Positions 13,144 to 58,548 are shown, counted from the first letter of the stretch. The stretch: DNA of 64,000 nt from Vicinamibacteria bacterium (GCA_965115855.1 OZ220470.1:2328422-2392421), one strand, 5' to 3'. Made by a program: numbers and translations. The notes: generated by a model not told the origin, from the letters alone.

Positions 13144-14550
13144 ATGCCGGAACCCGGAATCCTGAGCGTCCTCCCTCCCGTGCTGGCCATCGTGGTTGCC
13201 CTTCTGACCCGGCAGCCGGTGCTGGCGCTCCTGGCCGGGGTGCTCTTCGGAGAGCTGGTACTGGCTGCCGGCCGTCCCGGCCCCGCCCTCGCCGCGGCGT
13301 CGGGACGGGTCGTGGACGCCTTCTCCGGCAATGCCGAGATCCTCCTGTTCAGCACCTTGGTGGGCTCCGTCCTGGTACTGGTGGGGCGGCTCGGGGGAGT
13401 GGAGGGATTCGTTCGATGGTTCCGCTCCGGAAGCGTCGCCGGCAGCCCGCTCGGAGCCCGATTGCTCGCGCTCGGGCTGGGACTCGGCATCTTCGTGGAG
13501 TCGAGCATCACCTGCCTGGTCAGCGGCTCGGTCGCGCGCCCGCTTTTCGACCGGTTTCGGCAATCCCGGGAGAAACTGGCCTATCTCACCGACTCGACTT
13601 CGGCCCCGGTCTGCATCCTGATCCCGATGAACGGCTGGGGCGCGCTGATCATCGGCATCCTGGCGACCCTCGGCGTCGAGAACGGAATCGCGCTCCTGAT
13701 CGGCAGCATTCCGTTCAATTTCTACGCGCTCGCCGCGCTCGGCCTCGCCTTCTGGTTCGGGATCACCAACCGCAACTTCGGTCCGATGGCGCGGGCCCAG
13801 CGCCGGGCGGAAGAGACCGGACAGGTGCTTCGCGAAGGGGCGACGCCGCTCGCATCCACCGAAATCCTGGAGGTGCATCCGAAGGAAGGGGCCGTCCCGC
13901 GGGCGGTCAACATGCTGGTTCCGCTGGCGGTCATGCTGGTAATGATCTTCGTTTCGCTGCGGATCACCGGAGAGGGAGACCTGCTGGCGGGAAGTGGCGG
14001 AACCTCCGTCCTCTGGGCCGTACTCACCGCCATGGTGGTTGCGGTCCTGATGGGCCTCGCCCAGGGCATCCTGCGGATCGCGGAGAGCGTGGACCTGATC
14101 CTGCGGGGAGCTTCCGGGATGGTGCCGGTGGTTGCCGTTCTCCTCGTCTCGTTCGCGATCTCCGGGGTGGCGCGGGAGCTGGGCACCGGTGTGTACCTGG
14201 CAGGGATTGCGGAGTCGGCGATTCCCGGTTGGCTGTTCCCGACGGTGCTGTTCCTGGTCACGAGCGCGGTGGCCTTCTCCACCGGGACCTCGTGGGGCAC
14301 GTTCGCGATCATGCTTCCGATCGCGATACCGGCGGTGGCGGCGCTCGGCCTGGATCCGCGCCTGGTGGTCGCGGCGGTGTTGTCCGGTGGCATCTTCGGA
14401 GACCACTGTTCCCCGATCTCCGACACGACCATCATTGCCTCGATGGCCTCCGGGTCCGATCTGGTGGACCATGTGAACACCCAGCTTCCCTACGCACTTC
14501 TGGGCGCCGGGATCGCGACGCTTGCCTTCCTCGCCGCCGGGTCGCTCTGA
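13144..14550 (+). CDS. Na+/H+ antiporter NhaC-family membrane transporter
   Basis: 468 aa polytopic membrane protein resembling the NhaC/YfcC superfamily. Confidence 0.7.
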   Translation: MPEPGILSVLPPVLAIVVALLTRQPVLALLAGVLFGELVLAAGRPGPALAAASGRVVDAFSGNAEILLFSTLVGSVLVLVGRLGGVEGFVRWFRSGSVAGSPLGARLLALGLGLGIFVESSITCLVSGSVARPLFDRFRQSREKLAYLTDSTSAPVCILIPMNGWGALIIGILATLGVENGIALLIGSIPFNFYALAALGLAFWFGITNRNFGPMARAQRRAEETGQVLREGATPLASTEILEVHPKEGAVPRAVNMLVPLAVMLVMIFVSLRITGEGDLLAGSGGTSVLWAVLTAMVVAVLMGLAQGILRIAESVDLILRGASGMVPVVAVLLVSFAISGVARELGTGVYLAGIAESAIPGWLFPTVLFLVTSAVAFSTGTSWGTFAIMLPIAIPAVAALGLDPRLVVAAVLSGGIFGDHCSPISDTTIIASMASGSDLVDHVNTQLPYALLGAGIATLAFLAAGSL

Positions 14551-14567
14551 ACGTACAATCTCCCCGG

Positions 14568-15428
14568 ATGCTCCAGGACTCGCTCCTCGACGTACGGGAA
14601 CCGGGCAGGGTGGCGGCTGCCTCCGGCCCGGAACTCGTTCCCCTCGATCGGGATCATCCCGGATTCCGTGACTCGGCATACCGGGCTCGCCGGGACACGA
14701 TCGCCCGGTTGGCTCTCGACCATCGCCCCGGAGACCCGGCGCCGGCAGTGGACTATACGAAGGAGGAGCATGCCGTCTGGGCGCGCGTGCTGGGCAGCCT
14801 GACCGCCATGCACCGCGAGTTCGCGTGCGCCGAATACCAGCTTTGCGTGGACGCGGTCTCGCTGAGCCGGGACCGGATCCCGCAGCTCGAAGAGGTGAAT
14901 GCCGTCATCCGGCCGCTCACCGGTTTCCGGATGCTGCCAGTGGCCGGCCTCGTGGAAGCGCGCGCCTTCCTGTCGGACCTCGCGGACCGCGTCTTCCTCT
15001 CCACCCAGTACATCCGGCACCACAGCCGACCCTTCTACACTCCGGAGCCGGATGTCATCCACGAACTGGTGGGGCACGCCGCCACCTTCGCCCATCCCGG
15101 ATACGCGGCGCTGAGCCGGCATTTCGGCCGGGCGGCGCGCGGCGCCGATGACAAGGACATCGAACGCATCGCCCGGTTGTACTGGTTCACGCTGGAGTTC
15201 GGAGCGGTTCTCGAGGACGGTGTTCCCAAGGCATACGGCGCCGGATTGCTCTCGTCGGTCGGCGAGCTCGAACGGTTGCGGGACGCCGAACTGCGGCCGT
15301 TCGACGTGGATGCCATCGCCGCGACACCGTTCGATCCGACCGACTACCAGCCCTGGTACTTCCTCGCACCCAGCTTCGGCGAAATGACGGAGCAGGTCTC
15401 CCGATTCCTCTCCCGGTTCACGGAGTGA
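14568..15428 (+). CDS. phhA: phenylalanine 4-monooxygenase (aromatic amino acid hydroxylase)
   Basis: Only the C-terminal 286 aa of the 871-aa run-through ORF are real. Biopterin-dependent hydroxylase motifs present (PEPDVIHELVGH iron ligands, YWFTLEFG). Confidence 0.85.
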   Translation: MLQDSLLDVREPGRVAAASGPELVPLDRDHPGFRDSAYRARRDTIARLALDHRPGDPAPAVDYTKEEHAVWARVLGSLTAMHREFACAEYQLCVDAVSLSRDRIPQLEEVNAVIRPLTGFRMLPVAGLVEARAFLSDLADRVFLSTQYIRHHSRPFYTPEPDVIHELVGHAATFAHPGYAALSRHFGRAARGADDKDIERIARLYWFTLEFGAVLEDGVPKAYGAGLLSSVGELERLRDAELRPFDVDAIAATPFDPTDYQPWYFLAPSFGEMTEQVSRFLSRFTE

Positions 15429-15526
15429 GGCGGCCGTCCGGCAGGCGAAATGGACGGGCGTCTCGCACCGTCAGGCGCCCTTGCAACTCGTTTCCGTGAC
15501 AGTCTCGTACTGGAGGGATCAGTGAC

Positions 15527-15905
15527 ATGAGCGTGGCGAAGTCGCTTTCGGAGATGTACGGGGGCATGGACGCAGCCCAAGTGCAGGCGGATTACCAGCA
15601 CGTTCTGGTTCCCGGAGAAACTGTCGAGTATGCCTGCAAGACGCTGCGCGACCTCTTCATCGTTACCGACCGGCGCATTCTCAACGTGGACAAGCAGGGA
15701 CTCACCGGCGCAAAGAAAAATTGATGAGAGCATCGCGTTCCATAAGATCGGTCGCGACTCGGTGGAGTTCGGAGGCAAGCTGGCCGGGATGGTGACGATC
15801 CGGATAGGGGCATCTGGAGCTGGCGACAAGTTGGAGGTGGTGTTCGACAAGACCGCCAACGGCGAGGGGATTCAGAAAGTGCTGTCAACCAGGATTTTGG
15901 CATGA
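15527..15905 (+). pseudogene. bacterial PH domain (bPH_1/YokE-like) gene with a +1 frameshift at an A-run
   Basis: Two adjacent ORFs (15527..15724 and the tail of 15630..15905) encode the N- and C-halves of a ~125-aa bPH protein. Deleting one A from aaagaaaaa (15713-15720) restores ...LTGAKKIDESIAF... Confidence 0.5.
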
Positions 15906-16045
15906 ATTCGTTGTCCCCGCTGTACGGAGATACGTGATTCGTGGTCCTGCCGGAGACCCGAACCGGATCTGGATAATCGGGCGCACCGATCCCCGCCGGG
16001 GAGGCGCCATGACCGGACAGATCCCGTGGTTCGTCGACGGGAACG

Positions 16046-17302
16046 TCAGACCGCGCGCAGCACCACCACGGTGGCGTCGTCCTCGGGCGCACCGCCGCGG
16101 AACTGGCGGACATCCCGCAGAATCAGGTCGCAGATTTCCGCTGCCGGGGTCTGGCGGGCGCGTTCCTGCCGCAACAGCGCGGCGAGCCGCTTTCTTCCGT
16201 ACATCTCGCCGTTGCGGTTCGCCGACTCGGTGATCCCGTCGGTGGACAGCGCGATCAGATCGCCGCTCCCGAGCTGGATTCCCTGTTCGAAGTAGCGCGG
16301 GGAGGGGAAGAGGCCCACCGGCAGCCCGGCGGCGGGCACTTCCTCGACGGTCCCGTCGGCGCGCACCAGGATCGGCGGCAGGTGGCCGGCGTTGATATGC
16401 ACGAGGCGGCGGAGCGGCACGTCCAGAACTCCGTAGAAGAGCGTCGCGTACCGGGTCTCGCCCGCCGATTCGAAGAGCAGCCGGTTGACCCGGTTGAAGA
16501 TGGCGCGCAGCGCGAGGCTCGACGTTGCGAGTGCATACACCGAGGCTCGGAGGGCGCCGACCAGCAGCGCTGCCGGCACCCCCTTGCCCGCCACGTCGGC
16601 CACCGCGATGCCGTAGCGGTCCTCGCCGAGCGGGATAAAGTCGTAGTAGTCCCCACCCACCTCCGAACAGGGTTCGTATACCGCCGCGAGGTCCATGTGG
16701 TCCAGCCGGGGTGGCGCGTGGGGAAGCAGATCCTGGAGAACCTGCCCCGCGACTTCGAGCTCGGATATGAGTTCGCGGCGTTCGACGGCTTCCGTGTGGA
16801 AGAGAATCCGCTCCAGGGCCGGTGCGGCGCCACCGGCATAGGAACGGAGTGTCTTCTGATCCCCCTCGTCGAAGGCGTCCGGTCGCGAAGCCTCCAGGAT
16901 GAGGATCCCCACCCGGCGTCCGCCGGCGCCGAGTACCGGCGCCACGAGTGCCGAACGGGCGTCGGTGCTGATGTCCGGATCCGGCGCCGCTTCGTCGTCC
17001 GATGCGCACCAGGCTTCGGATCGCCCGGCGGCCAGCACCCGGCTGACGATGCCGTCCGGACTCGGAATTGCTTCCCCGCGCCGGCGCGGGCCCCACTCCG
17101 CCCGCCTGCCCCTCTCACGCCGGGCCAGAACGGTGGCGCCATCAAGGCTCATCACCGTGAGGGTGGCCCGATCCGCCTCCGGCAGCACGATGCGCGCCCC
17201 GGCGAGAACCTGGTCTCCGGTACGCCCGACCTCAAGGCTGCGACCCATCTCCTGGAACGCCTGCAGCAGACGGCGCTCCGGGGAGAGCTCCCGGGCGCTC
17301 AC
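16046..17302 (-). CDS. GAF domain-PP2C (SpoIIE/RsbU-like) serine phosphatase
   Basis: GAF domain followed by PP2C motifs (GDYYD, DVAGKG, STDGITE). GTG start at 17302 was chosen so the gene begins after the stop of the upstream secreted-protein gene. Confidence 0.75.
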   Translation of the reverse strand: MSARELSPERRLLQAFQEMGRSLEVGRTGDQVLAGARIVLPEADRATLTVMSLDGATVLARRERGRRAEWGPRRRGEAIPSPDGIVSRVLAAGRSEAWCASDDEAAPDPDISTDARSALVAPVLGAGGRRVGILILEASRPDAFDEGDQKTLRSYAGGAAPALERILFHTEAVERRELISELEVAGQVLQDLLPHAPPRLDHMDLAAVYEPCSEVGGDYYDFIPLGEDRYGIAVADVAGKGVPAALLVGALRASVYALATSSLALRAIFNRVNRLLFESAGETRYATLFYGVLDVPLRRLVHINAGHLPPILVRADGTVEEVPAAGLPVGLFPSPRYFEQGIQLGSGDLIALSTDGITESANRNGEMYGRKRLAALLRQERARQTPAAEICDLILRDVRQFRGGAPEDDATVVVLRAV

Positions 17303-17321
17303 CCGTGCGTCCCCGGGAACC

Positions 17322-17945
17322 CTACCGGTACGCGAAGCAGTAGAAGAGACCGTCGCCGCCGGTGCCCTGGAGATCGGACTGGCTGCACCCGCGGGAACCG
17401 TGCGCCGAATTCCACGAGGTTCCGTCGTCTCCTCCCCCGATCCGGTCATGGTGGCCCACCCGGGCGCTTCCGTCGCTGCTGTTGCTGGTCCAGTTGGAAC
17501 AGTTGGTGTCGCCGTCGCCCATGAATCGGGCTCCGTCGGCGGCCGTGCCGGTGATGATGTCGTGCCGGTTCACGTCGTCCCCGCGGCCGCTGATGACGTC
17601 GCCGGTTTCGGAAACCGAATTCTCCTTGCTCAGCTTGTTGTCCGCACCATGAAGATCCGCCACGTTCCGCGCAACCATCACACCGTTGGCATTGTGCCAG
17701 GGACCGCCCTTGATCCGGTCACGGGCGTCCACCTCGTCGGTGCTTAGATAGGCATGCCAGGTGAGGCCGGGATCGGCGCCCGCTTCCCGGGCGAGCATGG
17801 TGCAGTGGGCGTCGGCGCCGTCGAGCCCGCCGAGATTGGCCCCGTCTCCCGGGCCCTGGCTCGTCAGGAAAAAGGTCATGGGTTCCTGGGCGGCGAGGAG
17901 GCCGGGAACGGCAGCGAGGGAGAGCACGAGGGTGGCGCGGCGCAT
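17322..17945 (-). CDS. secreted hypothetical protein (Cys-containing, signal peptide)
   Basis: MRRATLVLSLAAVPGLLAAQEP signal peptide; Gly/Asp-rich mature part with 5 Cys; no family assigned. Confidence 0.5.
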   Translation of the reverse strand: MRRATLVLSLAAVPGLLAAQEPMTFFLTSQGPGDGANLGGLDGADAHCTMLAREAGADPGLTWHAYLSTDEVDARDRIKGGPWHNANGVMVARNVADLHGADNKLSKENSVSETGDVISGRGDDVNRHDIITGTAADGARFMGDGDTNCSNWTSNSSDGSARVGHHDRIGGGDDGTSWNSAHGSRGCSQSDLQGTGGDGLFYCFAYR

Positions 17946-35694: not shown

Positions 35695-35771
35695 CGGGGC
35701 GTGGCGCAGTCTGGCAGCGCGCCTGCTTTGGGAGCAGGAAGCCGGAGGTTCGAATCCTTCCGCCCCGACCA
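35695..35771 (+). tRNA. tRNA-Pro (anticodon TGG), CCA encoded
   Basis: Hand-folded cloverleaf: 7-bp acceptor CGGGGCG/CGCCCCG, anticodon stem CCTGC/GCAGG with loop TTTGGGA, T-loop GGTTCGAATCC. Confidence 0.85.
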
Positions 35772-35808
35772 GGTGATGGGCGCCCGTCATGGCGCGAGGC
35801 GTCGCAAC

Positions 35809-35881
35809 GCGCCAGTAGCTCAGTGGACAGAGCGGCGGCCTTCTAAGCCGATGGTCGGGGGTTCAAGTCCTCCCTGGCGCG
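35809..35881 (+). tRNA. tRNA-Arg (anticodon TCT)
   Basis: Acceptor GCGCCAG/CTGGCGC, D-stem GCTC/GAGC, anticodon loop CTTCTAA, T-stem GGGGG/CCTCC with TTCAAGT loop. Confidence 0.85.
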
Positions 35882-35895
35882 CCGGCGCACCGGCT

Positions 35896-35968
35896 GGTGG
35901 ATGTAGCTCAATGGCAGAGCACCGGATTGTGGTTCCGGGGGTTGGGGGTTCGAGTCCCCTCATCCACC
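35896..35968 (+). tRNA. tRNA-His (anticodon GTG) with extra 5' G(-1)
   Basis: Acceptor GTGGATG/CATCCAC preceded by G. Anticodon stem CCGGA/TCCGG with loop TTGTGGT. Confidence 0.8.
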
Positions 35969-36042
35969 CCGCCCGGCGGTGAGCGCGGGGCCCGGTGCGC
36001 GGCCGGGGCATCGGGGTGCGAGTCGCGTGGCGGGATCGAGGT

Positions 36043-38506: not shown

Positions 38507-39430
38507 ATGCCGCCGCTCCGCTCTCTCGGATTCATCGGACTCGGCGTCATGGGCAGGCCCATGGCGCGGAACCTGCTTGCCGCCGGCTTCGAGCTCACCG
38601 TCCACAGCCGGTCTCCGGGTCCGGTGGAAGATCTGGTGGCGGCCGGCGCCCGGCGTGCCGATTCCCCCGCCGATTGCGCTTCCGGGCGCGACGCCACCAT
38701 CCTGATGCTCCCGGATTCACCGGATTCCGAGCGCGTCATGCTGGGGCCGCGGGGCGTGCTGGAAGCCCGGTCGCCCAGCCCGCTCGTGGTGGACATGTCC
38801 TCGATCCGGCCGGAGACCACCCGCCGGATCGCTGCCGTGGCGGCGAAGAAGGACATCGCGTTCGTGGACGCTCCGGTCAGCGGCGGCGAGCCCGGCGCCA
38901 TCGCCGGCGAACTGGCCATCATGGCCGGGGGCGACCCGGAGGCATTCGAGACCCTCGGTCCGATCTTCGATGTTCTCGGGAAGAGTGCGGTGCACTGCGG
39001 GTCGGCGGGCGCCGGCAACACGGTGAAACTCGCCAACCAGATGATCGTGGCGGCGAACATCCAGGCAGTGGGCGAGGCGCTGCTGTTCTCGGTCCGGTCC
39101 GGCCTCGACCCCCGCATCGTGGTCGAGGCGATTCGGGAGGGGCTCGCCGGCAGCGCCGTGCTCGATGCGAAGGCGGAGAAGATGATCGCCGGCGACTGGA
39201 AGCCCGGCTTCCGTCTCGAACTCCACTTGAAGGACCTCGACAACGCCCTGGCGGCGGCCGCCGGAAGCGGCAGCCCGGTTCCGGTGACCACCGTGGTCCG
39301 CCAATTCGTCCGGACGCTCGTCGTCGATCAGGATCACGGCGCCGAGGACCACGCGGCCATCGCGCGCTACGGCGAAACGGTCGCCGGGAGCATGATCTCG
39401 GGTGCGCCAGAATGCTCCAATTCAGGCTGA
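38507..39430 (+). CDS. NAD(P)-dependent 3-hydroxyisobutyrate / 2-hydroxy-3-oxopropionate reductase family dehydrogenase
   Basis: N-terminal GLGVMG Rossmann motif; HIBADH family catalytic block (GxxGxG..K). Confidence 0.85.
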   Translation: MPPLRSLGFIGLGVMGRPMARNLLAAGFELTVHSRSPGPVEDLVAAGARRADSPADCASGRDATILMLPDSPDSERVMLGPRGVLEARSPSPLVVDMSSIRPETTRRIAAVAAKKDIAFVDAPVSGGEPGAIAGELAIMAGGDPEAFETLGPIFDVLGKSAVHCGSAGAGNTVKLANQMIVAANIQAVGEALLFSVRSGLDPRIVVEAIREGLAGSAVLDAKAEKMIAGDWKPGFRLELHLKDLDNALAAAAGSGSPVPVTTVVRQFVRTLVVDQDHGAEDHAAIARYGETVAGSMISGAPECSNSG

Positions 39431-39463
39431 TCCAAGATCGTATCTTGATTTTGACATGTTACG

Positions 39464-41143
39464 TTGCGGGCCATGATCGCCCGCGACCTGGGCTCCCGGC
39501 TCATCGAAGCGGCAACCAGATGGCCGTGCGTCACGCTCACCGGACCCCGGCAGAGCGGCAAGACGACGCTGTGCCGCGCGCTGTTTCCACAGCATCGATA
39601 CGAGACGCTGGAGGCCCCGGATGTGCGGGCGTTCGCCACCGAGGATCCCCGCGGCTTCCTGGCCCGGTTTCCGCAAGGCGCGGTTCTCGACGAGGTCCAG
39701 CGAGCGCCCGATCTGCTCTCCTGGCTTCAAGGTGTGATCGACGCCGACCCGGCGCCCGGACGCTGGATCCTCACCGGCTCGCAGAATTTCTCCCTGCTCG
39801 AATCGATCAGCCAGTCGCTCGCGGGAAGGACGGCGGTGTACAACCTCCTGCCCCTGACCCGGGGCGAGACGATGCGCTTTGCCCGGTATCCCGAAACGCT
39901 CGAAGAGACCCTCTTCACCGGTTCCTGGCCGCGCATCTTCGACGAAGGTCATGATGTCGCCGACTGGCTCGGATCCTATGTGGCCACCTACATCGAACGC
40001 GATGTGCGAACGGTGGTCAACGTGGGTGATCTCGCGGCCTTTCAGCGCTTCGTCGCGCTCTGCGCGGGCCGGACGTCGCAGTTGCTCAACTACTCCTCGC
40101 TCGCCGGGGACTGCGGGATCTCGCAACCGACGGCAAGAGCCTGGCTCGGCATCCTCGAAACCGGCTTCGTCGTGTTTCGCCTCCCGGTCCTTCGGACCAA
40201 TCTTCGCAAGCGGCTGGTGAAGACGTCCAAGCTGCATTTTTACGATACCGGGATCGCCTGCTGGCTGCTGGGCATTCGCAGCCCGGAACAACTGCGCAAT
40301 CACCCGCTTCGCGGTCCGATCTTCGAGACCTGGGTCGTTTCGGAGGTCGTCAAGCATCGGGCACACCGCGGCGAAGCCGGCGGCGTCTCGTTCTTCCGCG
40401 ACCGGACCGGGACCGAGGCCGATCTCGTGGTCGAAAACCTGAACGGCGCCGCGATCGTGGAAGCCAGGTCCGCTGCGACGCCGTCCTCCAGCCTGCTGGC
40501 GAGTGCCCGTCGGGTCCGACGACGCCTTGCCGCGCCGGGCCGCCGATATTCCGTCATCGTCGTGTATGGCGGCGACGAGCCCCAGCGCCGGGGCGCGGAC
40601 CGACTGGTTCCCTGGGGGGAACTGCATGAATTCGACTGGGGCGCCTCGGACGGGTTCGTCACGGTTCGAACCGCCGGTGCGCCGGTCGCCGGAGCGGGCG
40701 TGCTGGCGCTGTTCCCGGACAAGACGGGAAAGAACGCGGTCACCGACAATAGCGGCACGGCAGTACTCGATCTGCCTGCCACCCCGTTTCCCGTGACCGT
40801 TTTCGTCGCCGCCAGGGGGTTCGCCGCGCACGTGTCGCGCTCATGGAACCCCGCGGACGGGCCGCTTGACGTCGAGTTGGCGGAACTGCCGGATGGCGGC
40901 ACGGTGATCTTCCCGGACGGTACCGGCCAGATTCCCCTCCTGCGGGTTCGATTCCAGCCGGTCCGCGACTCCGATGGGCGCATGGTTCTCCATGTCCACG
41001 ACCTCGCCGACGCGCGACCGGCGCCCCTGGTCCTCGAACCCGGGGAGGATCTGCACCTCGCCGATTCCGAGGGGCGGGAGGCTTCGGTGCGCCTTGTCGA
41101 GATCGTCGGCCCCGCTGCCTTGGTGCAATACACAAGCGTTTGA
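39464..41143 (+). CDS. AAA ATPase (COG1373, AAA_14 plus DUF4143) with ~130-aa extra C-terminal beta-rich extension
   Basis: Walker A GPRQSGKTT; DUF4143 block KLHFYDTGIACWLLG. The product is 559 aa against a typical ~400-430 aa. Confidence 0.75.
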   Translation: MRAMIARDLGSRLIEAATRWPCVTLTGPRQSGKTTLCRALFPQHRYETLEAPDVRAFATEDPRGFLARFPQGAVLDEVQRAPDLLSWLQGVIDADPAPGRWILTGSQNFSLLESISQSLAGRTAVYNLLPLTRGETMRFARYPETLEETLFTGSWPRIFDEGHDVADWLGSYVATYIERDVRTVVNVGDLAAFQRFVALCAGRTSQLLNYSSLAGDCGISQPTARAWLGILETGFVVFRLPVLRTNLRKRLVKTSKLHFYDTGIACWLLGIRSPEQLRNHPLRGPIFETWVVSEVVKHRAHRGEAGGVSFFRDRTGTEADLVVENLNGAAIVEARSAATPSSSLLASARRVRRRLAAPGRRYSVIVVYGGDEPQRRGADRLVPWGELHEFDWGASDGFVTVRTAGAPVAGAGVLALFPDKTGKNAVTDNSGTAVLDLPATPFPVTVFVAARGFAAHVSRSWNPADGPLDVELAELPDGGTVIFPDGTGQIPLLRVRFQPVRDSDGRMVLHVHDLADARPAPLVLEPGEDLHLADSEGREASVRLVEIVGPAALVQYTSV

Positions 41144-41200
41144 GGAGCGGGGGAGTCCGGCCTCGCCGGCCAATGCCTTCGAAAGGGGATCCGCTCTCCC

Positions 41201-41818
41201 CTACGGCGCCACTCCGACCAGTACCAGCGGTACTGCGGGTACGCCGCGGCCTTGTCGGATGACGTTCAGCAGGTCGCGTTCGTAGTACGGCACTCCGGAA
41301 GACATTTCCTTCTCGAGTTCCTTCATGGGGAGTATTTCGATTCCCACGTCGATGATGTCCCGAGTGTAGAAGCTCAAGTGCTTCACGAACAGGTCATGGG
41401 CAACGAAGGCGTATTTGCCGAACTGGACTTCCACCGCGACCCGCTGCTTCACGAAGTCGGTCTGGTTGTATGACCGGATCGGTTCGTATCCCGCCTCCAC
41501 GATCTTCTGCTTCTGCTTTTCTTCGGGTAGCTCATGCACGCCGCGCATCACTCGCTCATCGGATGTGACCCAGAATGTGCTGCGACGTTGCTTCCACCCC
41601 CGGTCTTGGAAACCTTCACAAAATTCCCTGTTCATGTCCACCGGCGAATAGAGCATCCTGTTTTTGCTTCGGGATTCCTCGGAGACCTTGGTCCGACAAG
41701 CCCTGGCGTCCACAGCGCCGGCGATTTCCTCGACCTCCTGCCAGAGACCGGGATGGTGCACAAGAAGGTACTCATGGGCGTTCAAGTGGGAATACCGAGC
41801 CATGATCCGCATTGTCAA
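41201..41818 (-). CDS. BglII-family Type II restriction endonuclease
   Basis: From memory of BglII: N-term LWQEVEE against BglII LWKEIEE, and catalytic block VEVQFGKYAF against BglII VEVQFSNYPF. Local GC is markedly lower than the flanks. Confidence 0.65.
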   Translation of the reverse strand: MTMRIMARYSHLNAHEYLLVHHPGLWQEVEEIAGAVDARACRTKVSEESRSKNRMLYSPVDMNREFCEGFQDRGWKQRRSTFWVTSDERVMRGVHELPEEKQKQKIVEAGYEPIRSYNQTDFVKQRVAVEVQFGKYAFVAHDLFVKHLSFYTRDIIDVGIEILPMKELEKEMSSGVPYYERDLLNVIRQGRGVPAVPLVLVGVAP

Positions 41819-42681
41819 TGTCCCCCACGCGGCAGCCGGGGGTCGTAGACCGGTTTTCCCATCGGTCGGATGCGCAGGGTTCCGTCTTCACGCTGTCGGA
41901 TGCGTTCCCGGGCAATCTCGACATACTCGGGGATGATGTCGCAACCGTATCCCTCCCGTCCGTGGTTCAGGGCGGCGATCACCGTGCTGCCGACCCCCAT
42001 GTAGGGATCCAGCACCTTGTCGCCCGGGTCGGTCATGGCCAGCACCAGGCGCTCCACCAGTTCGATCGGAAACTGACAGGGATGGATCGTCTTTTCCGGA
42101 TGGTTGCTCTTGACATTGGGAATCTCCCAGACGTCGGTCGGATTCTTGCCTCTGGGGTTACAGGAGGGCTTGCCCGCATTCGGACCCTTGAAGTGCTTCT
42201 TTCCCGGGTACTTCGGTGGAACGCGGATCGGGTCCAGATGCCATGTATAGCTGTCGCTCCTGGTCCACCAGTTGATGGTCTCGTACCGGCCCGAAAGCCG
42301 TCGCGTGCAGTGCAGGCCATGTCCGAAGTGCCAGACGATCCGATTTCGCAGTCGCAGTCCATGTTCGCGGAAGACCGGATAGAGAATCACGTCCAGCGGG
42401 ATGATTTCGCCGTTATCCACATAATTCCCGACTTGCCAGCAGATCGACCCCTCCGGATGAAGCACCCGCACACATTCGGCGATCACCTTGCGCTGGGCCT
42501 CCACGTACGAGGACACGGGAGTTCGTTTCTCGTAGTCCTTCCCGAGGTTGTAGGGTGGTGAGGTGACGATCAATTTCATCGATCCATCAGGGACGGCTCC
42601 CAGAAATTCGAGATTGTCCTGACACGCGACAAGGGCCTTCGCCGCCTGTGCCGGAGCCGCGAGCGGCAGGCGATTCCGAAC
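41815..42681 (-). CDS. beta-class DNA methyltransferase (N4-cytosine/N6-adenine; M.BglII-like), cognate of the adjacent REase
   Basis: Motif IV SPPY (LIVTSPPYN) near the N-terminus, motif I DPYMGVGST near the C-terminus. Stop overlaps the REase start. True start uncertain, between 42681 and 42840. Confidence 0.8.
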   Translation of the reverse strand, partial: VRNRLPLAAPAQAAKALVACQDNLEFLGAVPDGSMKLIVTSPPYNLGKDYEKRTPVSSYVEAQRKVIAECVRVLHPEGSICWQVGNYVDNGEIIPLDVILYPVFREHGLRLRNRIVWHFGHGLHCTRRLSGRYETINWWTRSDSYTWHLDPIRVPPKYPGKKHFKGPNAGKPSCNPRGKNPTDVWEIPNVKSNHPEKTIHPCQFPIELVERLVLAMTDPGDKVLDPYMGVGSTVIAALNHGREGYGCDIIPEYVEIARERIRQREDGTLRIRPMGKPVYDPRLPRGGH

Positions 42682-42940
42682 CGGGCGCGGCGCGGCCCTG
42701 CTTCCTGGCCGCAATCGCAATCGCTGTCTCTCTTGCGCCACCACCAGACCGGGGTGGGCCGCGGAGCCCTGCGGCTTCGTCCGGCCGCCCGGCCGCTTCC
42801 GGTCATTTCGCAAATCCGCCGTGCCGCCGGGAGCGCTCATCGAACCCCACCTCCGCTTGGGGAGTATACCGGTCGGACTGCCGGGAACCGGCCCGGTCCC
42901 GCAGGGCTGGAGGTTCCGTCCCGGTGGTACCTTCCGGCGC

Positions 42941-43900
42941 ATGCGCCCCCTTCTTCCCATGCTCGTTCTTCTTGCCGCATGCTCACCTCCCCCGCAAACG
43001 ACAACGACGGATGCCGGCGCCTTGCCGCCGATTCTCGCCCAGAACGCCTTCCTCTACTACCGCGATCTGGCCGAGGCGGAGGCGTTCTATCGCGATGTGC
43101 TCGGGTTGCCCCTTGCCGCCGACTTCGGCTTCGCCAAGATGTTCGAGGTGGCCGAATCCGCCTATCTGACGCTGGTGGACGAGGCCGAGGGGATGCACAG
43201 CGCCGACGAACCCAGGACGGTGGCCTTCGCGCTGATCACCGAACGACTCGCCGACTGGCAGGCGCGCCTCGAGGAGGCGGGCGCCGATTTCCGCAGCCGC
43301 TTCGACGAAACGGCTGCCGATCCGGAAGCCGCCCACCACGGATTCACCGTGTTTGATCCGGGGGGCTACATCCTGGAGTTCGAGCGGTTCCTGCCCCACC
43401 CCGAGAACGCCGACCTGATGCCGATTCTGGATGCCAGCGAACCCCTGGGCGGGGATCGGGCCGCCGCCGGACCGGGGATGGGCTTCGAGGCGATGATCGT
43501 CTGGCTCTACTACCCGGAGCTCCCTCCCCTGCTCGACTTTTACCAGGAGGCGTTCGGTTTGCCACAGACGGTGGATCAGGGATGGGCGAAGATCCTTCGG
43601 ACGTCCTATGCCGGGTTCATCGGCCTCGTGGACTCGAACCGGGGCATGCACCCGTTCACCGAGGACAAGTCGGTCACCGTGAGTTTCTTCGTGGACGCGG
43701 TCGAACCCTGGCATCGGCATCTCGAGGATTTTCCCGGGTATCGATCCCGCACCGGAATCGTGAACGAGAGCGACCGGGTGCGGGTCTTCGTCGGCTACGA
43801 CCCCGGAAACTACTTCCTCGAGTTCGACGCCTTTCTGGATGCGCCGGGGAACGAGACGTTGCGGTCCCGGCTCCGGACGATCCGGCGTGTTCCCCGCTGA
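42941..43900 (+). CDS. tandem VOC (glyoxalase/bleomycin-resistance fold) lipoprotein
   Basis: Lipobox LLAACS; two VOC-like beta-alpha-beta-beta-beta modules. Confidence 0.65.
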   Translation: MRPLLPMLVLLAACSPPPQTTTTDAGALPPILAQNAFLYYRDLAEAEAFYRDVLGLPLAADFGFAKMFEVAESAYLTLVDEAEGMHSADEPRTVAFALITERLADWQARLEEAGADFRSRFDETAADPEAAHHGFTVFDPGGYILEFERFLPHPENADLMPILDASEPLGGDRAAAGPGMGFEAMIVWLYYPELPPLLDFYQEAFGLPQTVDQGWAKILRTSYAGFIGLVDSNRGMHPFTEDKSVTVSFFVDAVEPWHRHLEDFPGYRSRTGIVNESDRVRVFVGYDPGNYFLEFDAFLDAPGNETLRSRLRTIRRVPR

Positions 43901-55404: not shown

Positions 55405-55999
55405 CCACGGGCTCTCAGAACGGTCGGAATTTCGAAACACCTCGATGGGATTTCCGTGTCTGCTTCGGAGTTCTTTCTTTTGAGTTTCGAATCGCTACTG
55501 AACATGTACTGAAACAGGACCCACAAACGCGCACTCTGAAATGCGAACGGCTTGGGTCAACCGAATCAATGTCATTGCTTTCCTTCGAGTTGGAGTTTCG
55601 TGCGCAAATATTCCATTCCTCTTGGACCCTTTATGCGGTTACAGCTCCCACATAGAAGTTGAAGATTTTCCAAGTGATCTGTCCCTCCGTATGCTCTTGC
55701 GATAATGTGGTCAATTTCGAGATTGCGCATCTCGAAGTGCACACCACAACCTTCGCAATCACCCTCTTGTTGTCCATAAAGAGTCGCCTTGTGGCAACTT
55801 GGAGGAGGGAGAGATCCCAAATCGGTTCTGAGCGGCACATCCGTTCTATGAGCGACTCTCCCGAAAACCTCACCCCGAGCCTTTATTCGTTCAACAACAA
55901 GGTCCCCTGCCTTGGGAGAAAGGTCTATCCCTGCCCATTTTCGAGCCAACTCGTTGGCAGCAACCATGGTCGTGGCACATCCACAGAATGGATCCAAAA

Positions 56000-57438
56000 G
56001 GCTCTATTGAATTTCGAGTGGGTTATGCGAGGTGAGGGTTGAGCTTGGAGAAGTCGAGTTTTCCGGCGATAAGAAAGAAAACGGTGCGGATGGTGCGGAA
56101 GGAACGATACCCCCTGGCTTTCCGCTTGGCGGATTGGAAGAGGCCATTGAGGGCTTCTATGAACCCGTTGGTCTGGCGGGTTCGGGCCCACGCGGTGATG
56201 CCGTCGAAGTGTCTTCGGATCATCCGGGCGACGGCTTTCATGGGTTCGATCCGGGATCGATTCACGTTGGTGCACCACTGCTGGAGCATGGCCCGCATGA
56301 CATGGACTTGCTTGCGGTGGAGGATGGCACGGAGTTGCTCCCGGTACCGCCAAGCTCGAGTGGTGCGCTTCCCAGCGGTCTGTGCGATCAGCGCGTTGAG
56401 TGCGGCGCGTTGGTTACGGCTGAGGTGTGTCGGATTCTTGAGCAAGGTCCAGCGCATGCCCTTGATCCCCGGATCGACCCGCTGCTCGATGCGTCTGGTT
56501 TCGTCGAGGGCACTCGAGGCGTGGGCGACGACATGGAACTTGTCGAAAGTGATTTGGGCATGGGGCAAATGCTTCGCAACCCCCTTGATGAAAGCAGGGG
56601 ACATGTCGATCGAGACGAACCGGATCGCTTCGGGAGCGCCACCCTGTACCGCCAAGTTCCGGGCGAATTGTCCGACCGTGTCGGCCCCCCGGCCCTCCCC
56701 GACAAACAGCACCCGGCGCTTGCGGGCGTCGGCGGCAACGGTGACATAGGCGTGCCCCCGGGCCCGGGAGGTCTCGTCGATTGCGACGGCGCGAACGTCG
56801 CCCTGGTCGTCCTCCGCGGAGGCGAGTTCCACGTATTGGTTGCAGATGGTCTGAACCCGGTGTGGAGAAATCTTGTTCAACCGTGCGACCGCGGCGAAGG
56901 GCATTTCCCGACTCATGACGATCACCAACGCTTCGAAGAGCGCAGTGAACCCGGAGACCTGACCCGTCCAGGGCGTGGTGACCAGCGCGATCCGTCCGTC
57001 GGGCAGACGGACTCTCGGAACCCTCGCTACCACTTCGCATTCATACTGGAAGAAGTTGAGGTGGCGATAGCGCTTGGTCTTGGTGTCGTGGATGGGGTGT
57101 GTACCTTCGTGGTCCTTGTGAGGAAAGCGGGCGCCACGCTGAAAGTCGATATGGATGATCAGCTTGCGATCACACTCGACAAACTTCACGCTTTCGACGA
57201 ACCAAGGTTCGATGAGGCCAAGGGCGGTTGCGAAGATGCGGTGGATATCTGTCATGAGATGCTTCTCCTATGCAGAGATGGGCCGAAAAGCAGCATTCTG
57301 CCGCTTTTCGAGCCCGAACCAAGCATGCCCGTCGCGGGTCCGTGCGTCAAGGGTTCGCTCCGCCGGGCTACGCCCGCCCTTGACACCCGGCCCCCCGACG
57401 GGCTTCCCGCCCGTACCCACTCGAAATTGAGTTGAGGC
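56000..57438 (-). mobile_element. ISL3-family insertion sequence, copy 2 (1439 bp), inserted in the MTase-HNH gene
   Basis: 100% identical to 25160..26598. 8-bp TSD atccaaaa at 55992-55999 and 57439-57446. The frame bookkeeping (1447 nt, congruent to 1 mod 3) fits the flanking ORF frames. Confidence 0.9.
56023..57255 (-). CDS. ISL3-family transposase (copy 2)
   Basis: Identical 410-aa ORF. Confidence 0.85.
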   Translation of the reverse strand: MTDIHRIFATALGLIEPWFVESVKFVECDRKLIIHIDFQRGARFPHKDHEGTHPIHDTKTKRYRHLNFFQYECEVVARVPRVRLPDGRIALVTTPWTGQVSGFTALFEALVIVMSREMPFAAVARLNKISPHRVQTICNQYVELASAEDDQGDVRAVAIDETSRARGHAYVTVAADARKRRVLFVGEGRGADTVGQFARNLAVQGGAPEAIRFVSIDMSPAFIKGVAKHLPHAQITFDKFHVVAHASSALDETRRIEQRVDPGIKGMRWTLLKNPTHLSRNQRAALNALIAQTAGKRTTRAWRYREQLRAILHRKQVHVMRAMLQQWCTNVNRSRIEPMKAVARMIRRHFDGITAWARTRQTNGFIEALNGLFQSAKRKARGYRSFRTIRTVFFLIAGKLDFSKLNPHLA

Positions 57439-57710
57439 ATCCAAAACAAGGTCGCCCACGTCGGATGTGGAACTGATGATCCGGTGCAGAAGCGCGAGCG
57501 GTTTCTGTGTCGGAAAGCCGGTACGCTCCTTGGAAGACCCGGGAATGATCGGAATATCCCATACATCTCGCATTGGCATTCCGAGTGATTTTTTGTCTCC
57601 CGTGATTTTCTTGGATTTGGTAATCGGATCGAGGATTTGCGACCTCCCCTTGAATACGCGAAGAGTGGACGTTGATAACTCCTCGTAGCCCTGATTCCAA
57701 GACCATCTTA

Positions 57711-57726
57711 CCCCCCCCCCCCCCCC
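57711..57726. repeat. C16 homopolymer (G16 in the mRNA; poly-Gly codons) inside the MTase-HNH reading frame
   Basis: Direct count of 16 C. The upstream and downstream MTase frames differ by 1 nt across the tract. Confidence 0.9.
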
Positions 57727-58548
57727 GTATACCAAAAGAGAACGTCGTGCATTCGCTGAAATCGGCGCTGCTTTGACGGCCACCGCTTGTACGACCATAT
57801 GATTTCGTTCTGGAATGCGTCTTTCCCAAATACTGAATCCATGACCATTTTCAGGGGATGACTCATCGTGGGGTCACAGTGAAGCCACACTGATCCTGTC
57901 GGTTTCAGTATTCTTCGAATTTCCAAAATGCGCGGCGCCATATAGGCGAGATAGGATTTGTCGCTATCTGTAATGGCTGCCAAGATAATCTTGTGGAGAG
58001 ATGGATGCTTGGCTTCAATTAGATTGACCCACTCAGCATCTACATCGGAGAGCGACCACGTATCTTTAAAAGCAGCCCCTGCTGCCGTAGAACCAATAGG
58101 TGCGGCGTAGTCGGACTCGGAGTTGAAAGGAGGATCCAAATAGATTAGATCCACTGACTCGGAATTCATGCCTCGCATAATTGGGAGGTTGTCTCCGGTC
58201 CATACAGTCTTGTCGGCCCAATTCGGTTTGCCCATATCGAGAGGATATAGGAAACCTCACGCCATCGACACGGCACTCACCGATGGCGGCGTTTACGCTG
58301 CCTGCGAAGGACTTCGTGGCGCACGCCAAAGTGGATCGTTTTGATCGACTGCGAGGAATCGGCCTGCCTGCATGGTCCGGCAAGGGGTCGGTCCGTGCGT
58401 GCGGGATCGCCACGAGGTCAAGCGGATCGACGAGGAACTTTACGTCGGAACCAGTCGGGCTTCCACGGTGCTCTCAATGGGCATAAGCTTCCTCCGTACG
58501 CGCCGGAACTGCGCAAGGAGGTCTCTTTTGGGAAGACGAACAGCGGGA

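What the first reader, a model, noticed from the sequence alone, without database searches (positions are those of the whole stretch)
39464..42700. Low-GC BglII-like Type II R-M island adjacent to an extended COG1373/DUF4143 ATPase
The REase (205 aa) shares the BglII N-terminal LWxExEE and catalytic VEVQF-x-Y-x-F blocks. The MTase is beta-class (SPPY ... DPYMGVGST) with M-then-R order and overlapping stop/start. GC content from ~41150 to ~42600 is visibly lower than the flanks and returns to ~70% inside the MTase 5' end, so the module looks recently acquired. Immediately upstream sits a Walker-A AAA ATPase of the DUF4143 type, which is common in defence and mobile contexts, carrying an unusual ~130-aa beta-rich C-terminal extension (…DWGASDGFVTVRTAG…LVEIVGPAALVQYTSV). 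Whether the ATPase works with the R-M pair is unknown.
Basis: partly seen in the sequence, partly recalled or inferred. Interest (0 to 1): 0.5.

Follow-up and report, generated by a model that had tools for sequence, protein, structure and literature searches.

The report
BstYI-type restriction-modification cassette in defence hotspot
A small, horizontally acquired two-gene restriction-modification cassette, an orthologue of the well-known enzyme BstYI, lies beside an unrelated single-gene candidate defence ATPase in a variable slot of an acidobacterial chromosome; the cassette is ordinary, and the only unusual item is the ATPase's C-terminal module, which also occurs on many other immune-type proteins.

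Summary
There are three genes: ATPase 39473-41143 (+), REase 41201-41812 (-) and MTase 41815-42840 (-). The GC dip is real (0.59 against 0.67, z = -2.4).

The interpretation needs four corrections.
- The nuclease is a BstYI orthologue: 60% identical without gaps, 203 aa, PDB E = 1e-80. BglII itself scores only E = 2e-3. The expected site is therefore RGATCY, with m4C predicted from the SPPY motif.
- The M and R genes are separated by 2 nt. They do not overlap.
- The GC dip is partly intrinsic to the cassette. Its relatives show the same dip in other high-GC hosts, and the GC3 difference is modest.
- The ATPase's extension is not unusual. More than 100 full-length homologues carry it.

The ATPase matches PADLOC candidate PDC-S01 (AAA_14 + DUF4143, a PD-(D/E)xK domain).

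The ATPase and the R-M pair are not a conserved trio. Of 91 REase loci, 84 have the MTase adjacent and only one has any DUF4143 gene. None of the five distinct ATPase contexts read has this R-M pair.

Syntenic Vicinamibacteria carry other defence-type cargo in the same slot, between a 3-hydroxyisobutyrate-dehydrogenase-like (HIBADH-like) gene and a glyoxalase-family (VOC) gene. The slot is therefore a small defence hotspot filled by independent insertions.

One lead: the 165-aa tail recurs on TIR, SEFIR, Schlafen-like, kinase, protease and caspase proteins.

The parts
39473..41143 (+). Single-gene candidate defence ATPase of 556 aa. It has an AAA_14 P-loop domain (Walker A GPRQSGKTT, Walker B LDEVQ), a DUF4143 PD-(D/E)xK nuclease-like domain (D320 ... 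E333-A-R335, where relatives have K335), and a 165-aa C-terminal tail made of two beta domains.
   Evidence: - Pfam AAA_14 E = 1.7e-23 and DUF4143 E = 4.3e-43.
- PADLOC PDC-S01 E = 1.5e-96 over residues 1-377.
- Motif columns checked.
- More than 100 full-length homologues.
- AlphaFold model with pLDDT 80.
40652..41143 (+). C-terminal tail of the ATPase (residues about 397-559). It is a transthyretin/CarboxypepD_reg-like beta-sandwich followed by a second eight-stranded beta domain that no Pfam model covers.
   Evidence: - Pfam PF13620 scores 29.8 bits, below the 32.3 cut-off, and covers tail residues 8-72 only.
- Tail-only model: pLDDT 89, pTM 0.86.
- A profile search finds 711 cluster representatives.
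41144..41200 (.). 57-bp spacer between the convergent ATPase and REase genes. The cassette's homology to its relatives begins inside it, at 41183.
   Evidence: - blastn borders.
- No terminator-like site.
- Folding is no better than shuffles, z = -0.7.
41201..41812 (-). Type II restriction endonuclease of 203 aa, an orthologue of BstYI. The predicted site is R^GATCY.
   Evidence: - PDB 1sdo E = 1.4e-80.
- 60% ungapped identity; D119, E128, Q130, K133 and S172 conserved.
- Pfam PF09195 E = 3e-37.
- PADLOC REase_II E = 2.1e-84.
41815..42840 (-). Beta-class DNA methyltransferase of 341 aa, from the ATG at 42840 that follows the SD GGAGGTG. Motif IV is TSPPYN and motif I is DPYMGVGST. The conserved core runs 41815-42672. 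The first roughly 55 aa form a basic, high-GC leader that is not conserved. Predicted to make m4C within RGATCY.
   Evidence: - Pfam PF01555 E = 5.6e-50.
- M.RsrI structure E = 2e-34.
- 78-85% identical to the MTases next to the closest REases.
- Start context.
- Leaders vary across the family.
- SPPY is the catalytic motif of most bacterial N4C-MTases (PMC8885841).
41183..42672 (-). The transferable M-R cassette as delimited by DNA homology to relatives, 1490 bp, GC 0.592.
   Evidence: - blastn gives 76-78% identity to L001-L003 over exactly this span.
- GC z = -2.44.
39404..42916 (.). Variable segment of the chromosome, a defence hotspot between the HIBADH-like gene (38507-39430) and the VOC/glyoxalase lipoprotein gene (42941-43900).
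   Evidence: - Host homology to syntenic Vicinamibacteria stops at 39403 and resumes at 42917.
- Relatives L021 and L022 carry other cargo in the same slot.

Best explanation
The region is a 3.5-kb variable slot in the chromosome of a Vicinamibacteria (Acidobacteriota) bacterium. It has been filled by two independent horizontal acquisitions.

(1) A self-contained 1.5-kb Type II R-M cassette.
- The MTase is transcribed first. The REase start lies 2 nt after the MTase stop, behind a GGGGGA Shine-Dalgarno-like stretch, so the two are probably translationally coupled (inferred).
- The MTase, a beta-class enzyme with an SPPY motif, is predicted to methylate N4 of the cytosine in RGATCY.
- The REase is a BstYI orthologue. 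It is predicted to act as a homodimer and cut unmethylated R^GATCY in incoming DNA (inferred from BstYI).

(2) A solitary ATPase-nuclease of the PADLOC candidate family PDC-S01, with AAA_14, a DUF4143 PD-(D/E)xK domain and a two-domain beta tail.
- It most likely acts alone. A plausible model, entirely inferred, is that the tail senses or binds a trigger and the ATPase then licenses the nuclease domain.

The two neighbours share a hotspot, not a mechanism.
For: R-M identity.

Cassette autonomy:
- Among 91 loci with REase relatives, 84 have the cognate MTase directly upstream on the same strand. The other 7 are cut off by the contig end.
- DNA homology to relatives covers only the two genes.
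- Relatives of the REase occur on phage-derived contigs, and relatives of the MTase on plasmids.

Foreign to this locus:
- Syntenic relatives L021 and L022 keep ADH-radical SAM-CMD-HIBADH ... VOC but hold other genes in the slot. L021 has an AAA_15/AAA_21 ATPase resembling AriA, GajA or Old. L022 has CobQ plus a DrmD fragment.
- Host homology breaks at 39403 and 42917.
- GC and GC3 are lower than in host genes.
- RGATCY is not avoided: 106 sites observed against 101-117 expected.

Independence of the ATPase:
- Only 1 of 91 REase loci has any DUF4143 gene, and that one is only 33% identical.
- The five distinct ATPase contexts read (nine loci in all) show a solitary gene with no BstYI-type pair. 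It lies next to integrases, transposases or toxin-antitoxin genes, or alone between housekeeping genes.
- The GC3 values differ: 0.80 for the ATPase and 0.74 for the R-M genes.

ATPase family: PDC-S01 E = 1.5e-96. DUF4143 is classed in the PD-(D/E)XK superfamily (PMC3424549).
Against: - No activity, methylation or expression data exist. Specificity is inferred from 60% identity to BstYI, and family members can differ in specificity, as BglII and BstYI do.
- No 100%-identical MTase was retrieved from the source genome's own annotation, although the REase and the ATPase were. The MTase may have been called a pseudogene or missed there. In the window the ORF is intact.
- The ATPase has Arg in place of the motif Lys (K335R).
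- One PDC-S01 representative gave no protection against T4, T5 or T7 in E. coli (bioRxiv 10.1101/2024.09.26.614923). Defence activity of the family is therefore unproven.
- Physical adjacency could still allow functional interplay in this particular strain.
Confidence: 0.85

Rival explanations
1. The ATPase and the R-M pair form one three-gene defence system. In this reading the ATPase-nuclease assists or regulates restriction, as in ATP-dependent or Type IV-like add-ons.
For: They are immediate neighbours, separated by a 57-bp convergent spacer, inside one variable segment that is absent from relatives. DUF4143 is a PD-(D/E)xK nuclease-type domain.
Against: - The genes are convergent, so they are not an operon.
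- 90 of 91 REase loci lack any DUF4143 gene.
- None of the five distinct ATPase contexts has this R-M pair.
- The closest relatives of each part are found in different organisms without the other part.
- BstYI works in vitro as a stand-alone Type IIP enzyme (established knowledge; commercial enzyme, used in PMC10734518).
Confidence: 0.04
2. The R-M cassette is an old resident or a decaying remnant. In this reading the low GC only reflects protein composition, and the genes are inactive.
For: - The cassette is also 5-7 GC points below its flanks in other hosts, so the dip does not date the insertion.
- GC3 (0.74) is already fairly close to host values.
- No exact MTase entry was retrieved from the source genome.
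Against: - Both ORFs are full length and colinear with their relatives. All catalytic motifs are kept and there are no frameshifts.
- The cassette is absent from the syntenic relatives sampled.
- There is no avoidance of RGATCY in 64 kb, which argues against long co-residence.
- An intact REase without a working MTase would be lethal, so an intact pair implies function.
Confidence: 0.08
3. The ATPase is not a defence gene but a housekeeping or mobile-element maintenance ATPase. PDC-S01 would then be a false candidate that merely hitch-hikes in variable regions.
For: - PDC-S01 is defined by embedding among defence genes and is not validated (PMC12988326).
- One member gave no protection against T4, T5 or T7.
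- Several copies lie next to transposases or integrases.
- Some copies lie alone between metabolic genes.
Against: - The same tail module is fused to hallmark immune domains: TIR, SEFIR, caspase, Schlafen-like, PD-T4-6-like kinase and trypsin-like protease.
- In this lineage the same chromosomal slot holds other defence-type genes.
- Distribution across phyla at 60-73% identity indicates frequent horizontal transfer, as is typical of defence genes.
Confidence: 0.25

Closest known systems
BstYI restriction endonuclease (Geobacillus stearothermophilus Y406; PDB 1sdo, 1vrr, 2p0j), recognising R^GATCY
   Same: - Same length (203 aa), with 60% identity in an ungapped alignment.
- D119, E128, Q130, K133 and S172 are identical.
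- Same gene order, with a beta-class MTase directly upstream, in 84 of 84 informative relatives.
   Different: - The host is a high-GC acidobacterium rather than a thermophilic Firmicute.
- 40% of residues differ, mostly in the N-terminal half.
- Specificity and methylation sensitivity are untested here.
BglII (AGATCT) and M.BglII
   Same: Same Pfam family, PF09195. The catalytic block (V/I)EVQF-x-Y is shared.
   Different: The match is only marginal (E = 2.4e-3, two short stretches). BglII is 223 aa and uses a different recognition strategy (PMC2731914). The window's enzyme is not a BglII orthologue.
Beta-class amino-MTases: M.RsrI, M.MboIIA and CcrM (N6A, DPPY); M.PvuII and other N4C enzymes (SPPY/F)
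   Same: Pfam PF01555 fold and beta-class motif order. The best solved relative is M.RsrI, E = 2e-34.
   Different: Motif IV is SPPY, as in most N4-cytosine enzymes, not the DPPY of the N6-adenine enzymes (PMC8885841). The N-terminal leader is variable and non-conserved.
PADLOC candidate PDC-S01 (AAA_14 + DUF4143 / COG1373)
   Same: Strong HMM match, E = 1.5e-96, residues 1-377 against model positions 8-406 of 422. It is a single gene lying in variable regions.
   Different: The PADLOC model ends before the 165-aa tail. This subfamily of about 560 aa adds a two-beta-domain module that is shared with other immune-type proteins. The motif Lys is Arg in this copy.

Membership tests
BglII/BstYI restriction endonuclease family (Pfam PF09195) | Profile match above the curated cut-off over the whole domain | tested here: met
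   128.3 bits against a cut-off of 26; residues 13-204 match profile positions 1-163 of 163.
BglII/BstYI restriction endonuclease family (Pfam PF09195) | PD-(D/E)xK variant active site D ... E-x-Q (BstYI D119, E128, Q130; numbering from the alignment, role of the residues from established knowledge of BstYI and BglII structures) | tested here: met
   D119, E128 and Q130 are identical in the ungapped alignment.
BstYI orthologue (RGATCY specificity) | Full-length colinearity and high identity to BstYI, with the contact residues K133 and S172 kept | tested here: met
   E = 1.4e-80; 203 of 203 residues aligned without gaps; 60% identity; K133 and S172 kept.
BstYI orthologue (RGATCY specificity) | Cleavage of R^GATCY | not testable with these tools
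   Needs enzyme assays or a methylome. Inferred only.
BglII orthologue (AGATCT) | Close full-length similarity to BglII | tested here: not met
   E = 2.4e-3, with two short stretches only.
Type II R-M system (separate M and R genes) | Cognate MTase adjacent to the REase, with the pair conserved as a unit | tested here: met
   The M stop and the R start are 2 nt apart. 84 of 91 related loci have M directly upstream of R, and the other 7 are truncated.
Beta-class N4/N6 DNA MTase (Pfam PF01555) | Profile match, with motif IV (S/D)PPY N-terminal to the AdoMet motif I | tested here: met
   170.8 bits against a cut-off of 26.7. TSPPYN lies about 185 residues before DPYMGVGST.
N4-cytosine MTase | SPPY catalytic motif; m4C product | tested here: inconclusive
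   SPPY is present, and it is shared by most bacterial N4C-MTases (PMC8885841). The product was not measured. The best solved relatives by sequence are N6A enzymes.
PDC-S01 (PADLOC candidate single-gene system) | Match to the PDC-S01 HMMs; AAA_14 + DUF4143 architecture | tested here: met
   E = 1.5e-96. Pfam AAA_14 and DUF4143 are both above cut-off.
PDC-S01 (PADLOC candidate single-gene system) | Stand-alone gene without a conserved partner | tested here: met
   Five distinct contexts (nine loci) share no neighbour.
PDC-S01 (PADLOC candidate single-gene system) | Anti-phage activity | not testable with these tools
   The family is unvalidated (PMC12988326). One member was negative against T4, T5 and T7.
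DUF4143 as a PD-(D/E)xK nuclease | D ... (D/E)-x-K catalytic motif | tested here: inconclusive
   D320 and E333 are kept, but K335 is Arg in the window protein, whereas 45 of 47 relatives have Lys.
CarboxypepD_reg / transthyretin-like beta-sandwich (Pfam PF13620) | Profile match above cut-off, or fold match | tested here: inconclusive

The most novel reading that the evidence does not exclude
The 165-aa C-terminal module of the ATPase may be an unnamed, mobile sensor or targeting module of prokaryotic immune proteins. It consists of a transthyretin-like sandwich plus a second beta domain with the conserved motifs GRLNPIxD and NIAINxG.

The same full-length module is attached to TIR, SEFIR, Schlafen-like/HATPase_c_4, Ser/Thr-kinase, trypsin-like, caspase, PIN and DUF4062 heads, as well as to the PDC-S01 ATPase-nuclease. 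If so, it would define the trigger for a whole set of single-protein defence systems, and this approximately 560-aa PDC-S01 subfamily would be an autonomous sensor-ATPase-nuclease.
Probability: 0.35. Interest if true: 0.55.

Novelty: new member of a known kind. Interest (0 to 1): 0.25.

Why it matters
For the R-M pair, little. It adds one more BstYI-type isoschizomer candidate, from an uncultured high-GC acidobacterium, to a family that already has thousands of sequenced members.

Two things are of modest use:
- The locus documents a small chromosomal hotspot in marine or sponge-associated Vicinamibacteria (between the HIBADH-like and VOC genes) where different defence genes replace one another.
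- The ATPase's tail is a module shared by many immune-type effector proteins and is not covered by Pfam or PADLOC models. That gives a concrete handle for testing what PDC-S01 senses. PDC-S01 is reported as one of the most abundant yet unvalidated defence candidates (PMC12988326).

Tried and rejected
- **Flanking repeats or a mobility gene for the island:** only chance-level repeats were found, and there is no integrase or transposase in 39.2-43.2 kb.
- **Promoter and terminator scan, and folding of the convergent spacer:** nothing above shuffles.
- **Exact look-up of the source contig through the REase and ATPase proteins:** not on record. Cluster look-up gave no names or accessions.
- **Hypothesis that the MTase's high-GC leader was captured from host DNA:** not supported. 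Positions 42673-42916 match neither syntenic relatives nor related cassettes.
- **Hypothesis that the tail is the 'PNTD' region of pAgo-associated proteins:** rejected. Those PADLOC hits map to the Schlafen/HATPase_c_4 heads, and the tail alone hits nothing.
- **Full-length fold search of the ATPase:** only generic AAA+ matches.
- **Viral fold library for the tail:** only generic beta-sandwich similarity.
- **afdb50 fold library:** unavailable.
- **ATPase relatives on viral contigs:** none found with single-protein patterns.
- **Literature searches for 'PNTD1' and for CarboxypepD_reg with TIR:** uninformative.
- **Rfam:** only tRNAs in the window, so the second low-GC region is not rRNA.
Full report
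**1. What is in the sequence**

The region holds three genes:
- An ATPase on the + strand. The ORF runs 39464-41143. The start used by its homologues is the ATG at 39473, giving 556 aa.
- A 203-aa nuclease on the - strand, 41201-41812.
- A DNA methyltransferase on the - strand that ends at 41815.

The MTase stop codon (41817-41815) and the nuclease ATG (41812) are 2 nt apart, in the context TGAcaATG. A GGGGGA stretch lies 9-14 nt upstream of that ATG. The two genes are tightly coupled but do not overlap. The TTG at 41818 listed by the ORF finder would add two residues that neither BstYI nor any homologue has.

The MTase ORF is open up to 42960. The best start is the ATG at 42840, which is preceded by GGAGGTG, giving 341 aa. 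The divergent neighbour is a lipoprotein of the glyoxalase/VOC family and starts at 42941.

**2. The GC dip is real, but it dates nothing**

In 300-bp windows GC falls to 0.56-0.61 between about 41200 and 42650. The flanks are 0.65-0.72.

The 1490 bp that are homologous to related cassettes have GC 0.592. The window mean is 0.673, so z = -2.44. Only one other place in the 64 kb is as low.

By codon position the signal is weaker:

| Genes | GC3 | GC2 |
|---|---|---|
| REase | 0.735 | 0.35 |
| MTase core | 0.738 | 0.44 |
| ATPase | 0.80 | 0.51 |
| Neighbouring host genes | 0.82-0.91 | 0.44-0.53 |

Much of the dip therefore reflects the amino-acid composition of two strongly conserved proteins. 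The same cassette is 5-7 GC points below its flanks in three other high-GC hosts. The dip shows that the cassette is compositionally foreign. It does not show that it arrived recently.

**3. Identity of the R-M pair**

The nuclease hits Pfam Endonuc-BglII at 128 bits against a cut-off of 26. Among solved structures it matches BstYI end to end (E = 1.4e-80), while BglII is marginal (E = 2.4e-3).

The alignment to BstYI has no gaps: 203 aa against 203 aa, 60% identical. D119, E128, Q130, K133 and S172 are all conserved. BstYI recognises RGATCY, a degenerate site that includes the BglII and BamHI sites (PMC2731914). RGATCY, not AGATCT alone, is therefore the expected site.

The family is very large. 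More than 8000 hits were scored, and the nearest are 79-80% identical.

The MTase is a beta-class amino-MTase: PF01555 at E = 5.6e-50, and M.RsrI is the best solved relative. It has TSPPYN upstream of DPYMGVGST. SPPY is the catalytic motif of most bacterial N4-cytosine MTases, whereas N6-adenine enzymes have DPPY (PMC8885841). m4C is therefore predicted, not shown.

The first roughly 55 residues form a basic, high-GC leader with no counterpart in the nearest relatives. N-terminal leaders of very different length and sequence are common across this MTase family.

**4. The cassette is an autonomous two-gene unit**

DNA homology to the closest cassettes covers 41183-42672 and nothing else.

I collected 91 loci encoding REase relatives, 826 kb in total, from metagenomes, viral contigs and assemblies. 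In 84 the cognate MTase lies directly upstream on the same strand. The other 7 are cut off by a contig end.

REase relatives occur on phage-derived contigs and MTase relatives on plasmids.

Within the island there is no integrase, no transposase and no meaningful flanking repeat.

RGATCY is not avoided in the window: 106 sites observed against 101-117 expected under Markov models. That fits a short co-residence, or simply effective protection by methylation.

**5. The locus is a variable slot**

The downstream glyoxalase-family gene identifies the host as a member of the Vicinamibacteria (Acidobacteriota). Related genomes are labelled Candidatus Marinacidobacterium, and several are sponge-associated MAGs.

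Two relatives, L021 and L022, keep the same neighbourhood: ADH, radical-SAM, CMD and HIBADH genes on one side and the VOC gene on the other. They hold other genes in between:
- L021 has a 578-aa AAA_15/AAA_21 ATPase that hits the AriA, GajA and Old models.
- L022 has CobQ plus a fragment matching the C-terminus of DISARM DrmD.

Host homology stops at 39403 and resumes at 42917. The whole of 39404-42916, ATPase included, is therefore accessory DNA in a small defence hotspot.

**6. The ATPase**

It has AAA_14 and DUF4143 domains, with an intact Walker A (GPRQSGKTT) and Walker B (LDEVQ). It matches the PADLOC candidate PDC-S01 at E = 1.5e-96.

DUF4143 is classed in the PD-(D/E)XK superfamily (PMC3424549). 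PDC-S01 is reported as the fourth most common defence-type system in prokaryotes but is still unvalidated (PMC12988326). One representative gave no protection against T4, T5 or T7 in E. coli (bioRxiv 10.1101/2024.09.26.614923).

The extension is the norm for this subfamily. More than 100 listed homologues of 555-585 aa cover 99% of the protein at 58-73% identity. The source names attached to some of them include Paracoccaceae, Rhodospirillales, Truepera, Nitrospira and Gammaproteobacteria.

The window's copy has Arg where 45 of 47 relatives have the Lys of the E-x-K motif. It has 7 private changes at otherwise near-invariant positions, against a family median of 2 and a maximum of 12. It is high in the range but not an outlier.

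**7. Is there an ATPase-R-M trio? No**

- The ATPase and the nuclease genes are convergent.
- Only 1 of 91 REase loci has any DUF4143 gene within reach, and that one is a 33%-identical paralogue.
- The five distinct genomic contexts of close ATPase relatives (nine loci) have no BstYI-type pair and share no neighbour. The gene lies alone between metabolic genes, or next to integrases, transposases and toxin-antitoxin genes.
- The nearest relatives of each part live in different genomes without the other part.

The adjacency is best explained by two independent insertions into one hotspot.

**8. The tail: the one lead worth keeping**

Modelled alone, the tail gives a confident two-domain all-beta structure (pLDDT 89, pTM 0.86).

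A profile of the tail finds 711 cluster representatives at 50% identity, 166 of them below E = 1e-30. In many of these the complete module lies at the C-terminus of quite different heads:
- TIR, TIR_2 and SEFIR domains (ThsB-like, PDC-S66-like and bSEFIR-like)
- Schlafen AlbA_2 plus HATPase_c_4
- Ser/Thr kinase (PD-T4-6-like)
- trypsin-like protease
- caspase
- PIN
- DUF4062
- Fic-like C-terminal domain

No PADLOC model hits the tail itself. This promiscuous distribution on immune-type effectors suggests a shared sensing or targeting module. That is inference from domain architecture only.

In the window's protein the second tail domain is the most diverged part: 44% mean identity against 59% among relatives. 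It also has a 3-residue deletion in the conserved NIAINxG stretch.

**9. Verdict**

It is wrong in four particulars:
- The enzyme is BstYI-type, not BglII-type.
- The M and R genes do not overlap.
- The ATPase extension is common in its subfamily.
- GC alone does not show recent acquisition.

The R-M pair is an ordinary new member of a very well-known family. The ATPase is a member of a catalogued but uncharacterised candidate family and is not a partner of the R-M pair. Overall interest is low. The tail module and the hotspot are modest leads.

Noticed in passing
window 55572-58235 (- strand): A second low-GC islet (GC 0.49-0.55), the only other place in the window as low as the R-M cassette. 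It holds a beta-class N6_N4 MTase with a C-terminal HNH nuclease domain. The gene is broken into pieces (57708-58235, 57268-57798, 55572-55997) by a frameshift and by an inserted ISL3-family transposase gene at 56023-57255.
   Followed up: partly
window 40652-41143 (tail of the ATPase); proteins P0241-P0390: The 165-aa two-beta-domain tail recurs, full length, at the C-terminus of TIR/SEFIR, Schlafen-HATPase_c_4, kinase, trypsin-like, caspase, PIN and DUF4062 proteins. No Pfam model matched its second half at E ≤ 0.01, and no PADLOC model hits it.
   Followed up: partly
window 40466-40474 (ATPase residues 333-335): The Lys of the putative E-x-K nuclease motif is Arg in this copy, whereas 45 of 47 relatives have Lys. 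The second tail domain is also unusually diverged and has a 3-residue deletion. This could be decay or retargeting.
   Followed up: partly
window 42673-42916: A 244-bp stretch of GC 0.72 that matches neither related R-M cassettes nor syntenic host DNA. It supplies the MTase's 55-aa basic leader, its Shine-Dalgarno sequence and its start codon. Its origin is unknown.
   Followed up: partly
window 35695-35970: A cluster of tRNA-Pro(TGG), tRNA-Arg(TCT) and tRNA-His(GTG) genes lies 3.4 kb to the left of the variable segment. The four genes in between are conserved in relatives, so the tRNAs are not the insertion site.
   Followed up: partly
L021 8247-9983 (-); L022 7548-9029 and 9078-9689 (-): In syntenic Vicinamibacteria the same HIBADH-VOC slot holds other cargo. 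L021 has an AAA_15/AAA_21 ATPase resembling AriA, GajA or Old. L022 has CobQ plus a fragment matching the C-terminus of DISARM DrmD.
   Followed up: yes
L004-L007, about 13200-17677: Close ATPase relatives lie between two methylmalonyl-CoA mutase genes. About 3.5 kb further on, otherwise identical contigs carry different defence cargo: SIR2_2 plus a Type ISP enzyme in some, and Dam plus DndB plus TIR_2 in another.
   Followed up: no
L023 10783-12710: In one relative the VOC/glyoxalase gene itself is interrupted by about 1.9 kb of inserted DNA.
   Followed up: no
protein collection: The source genome's REase and ATPase are in the protein collection at 100% identity, on a 3,016,700-bp contig. 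No 100% MTase was returned; the best hit is 85%. The MTase may have been missed or flagged as a pseudogene in that annotation, although the ORF is intact in the window.
   Followed up: no
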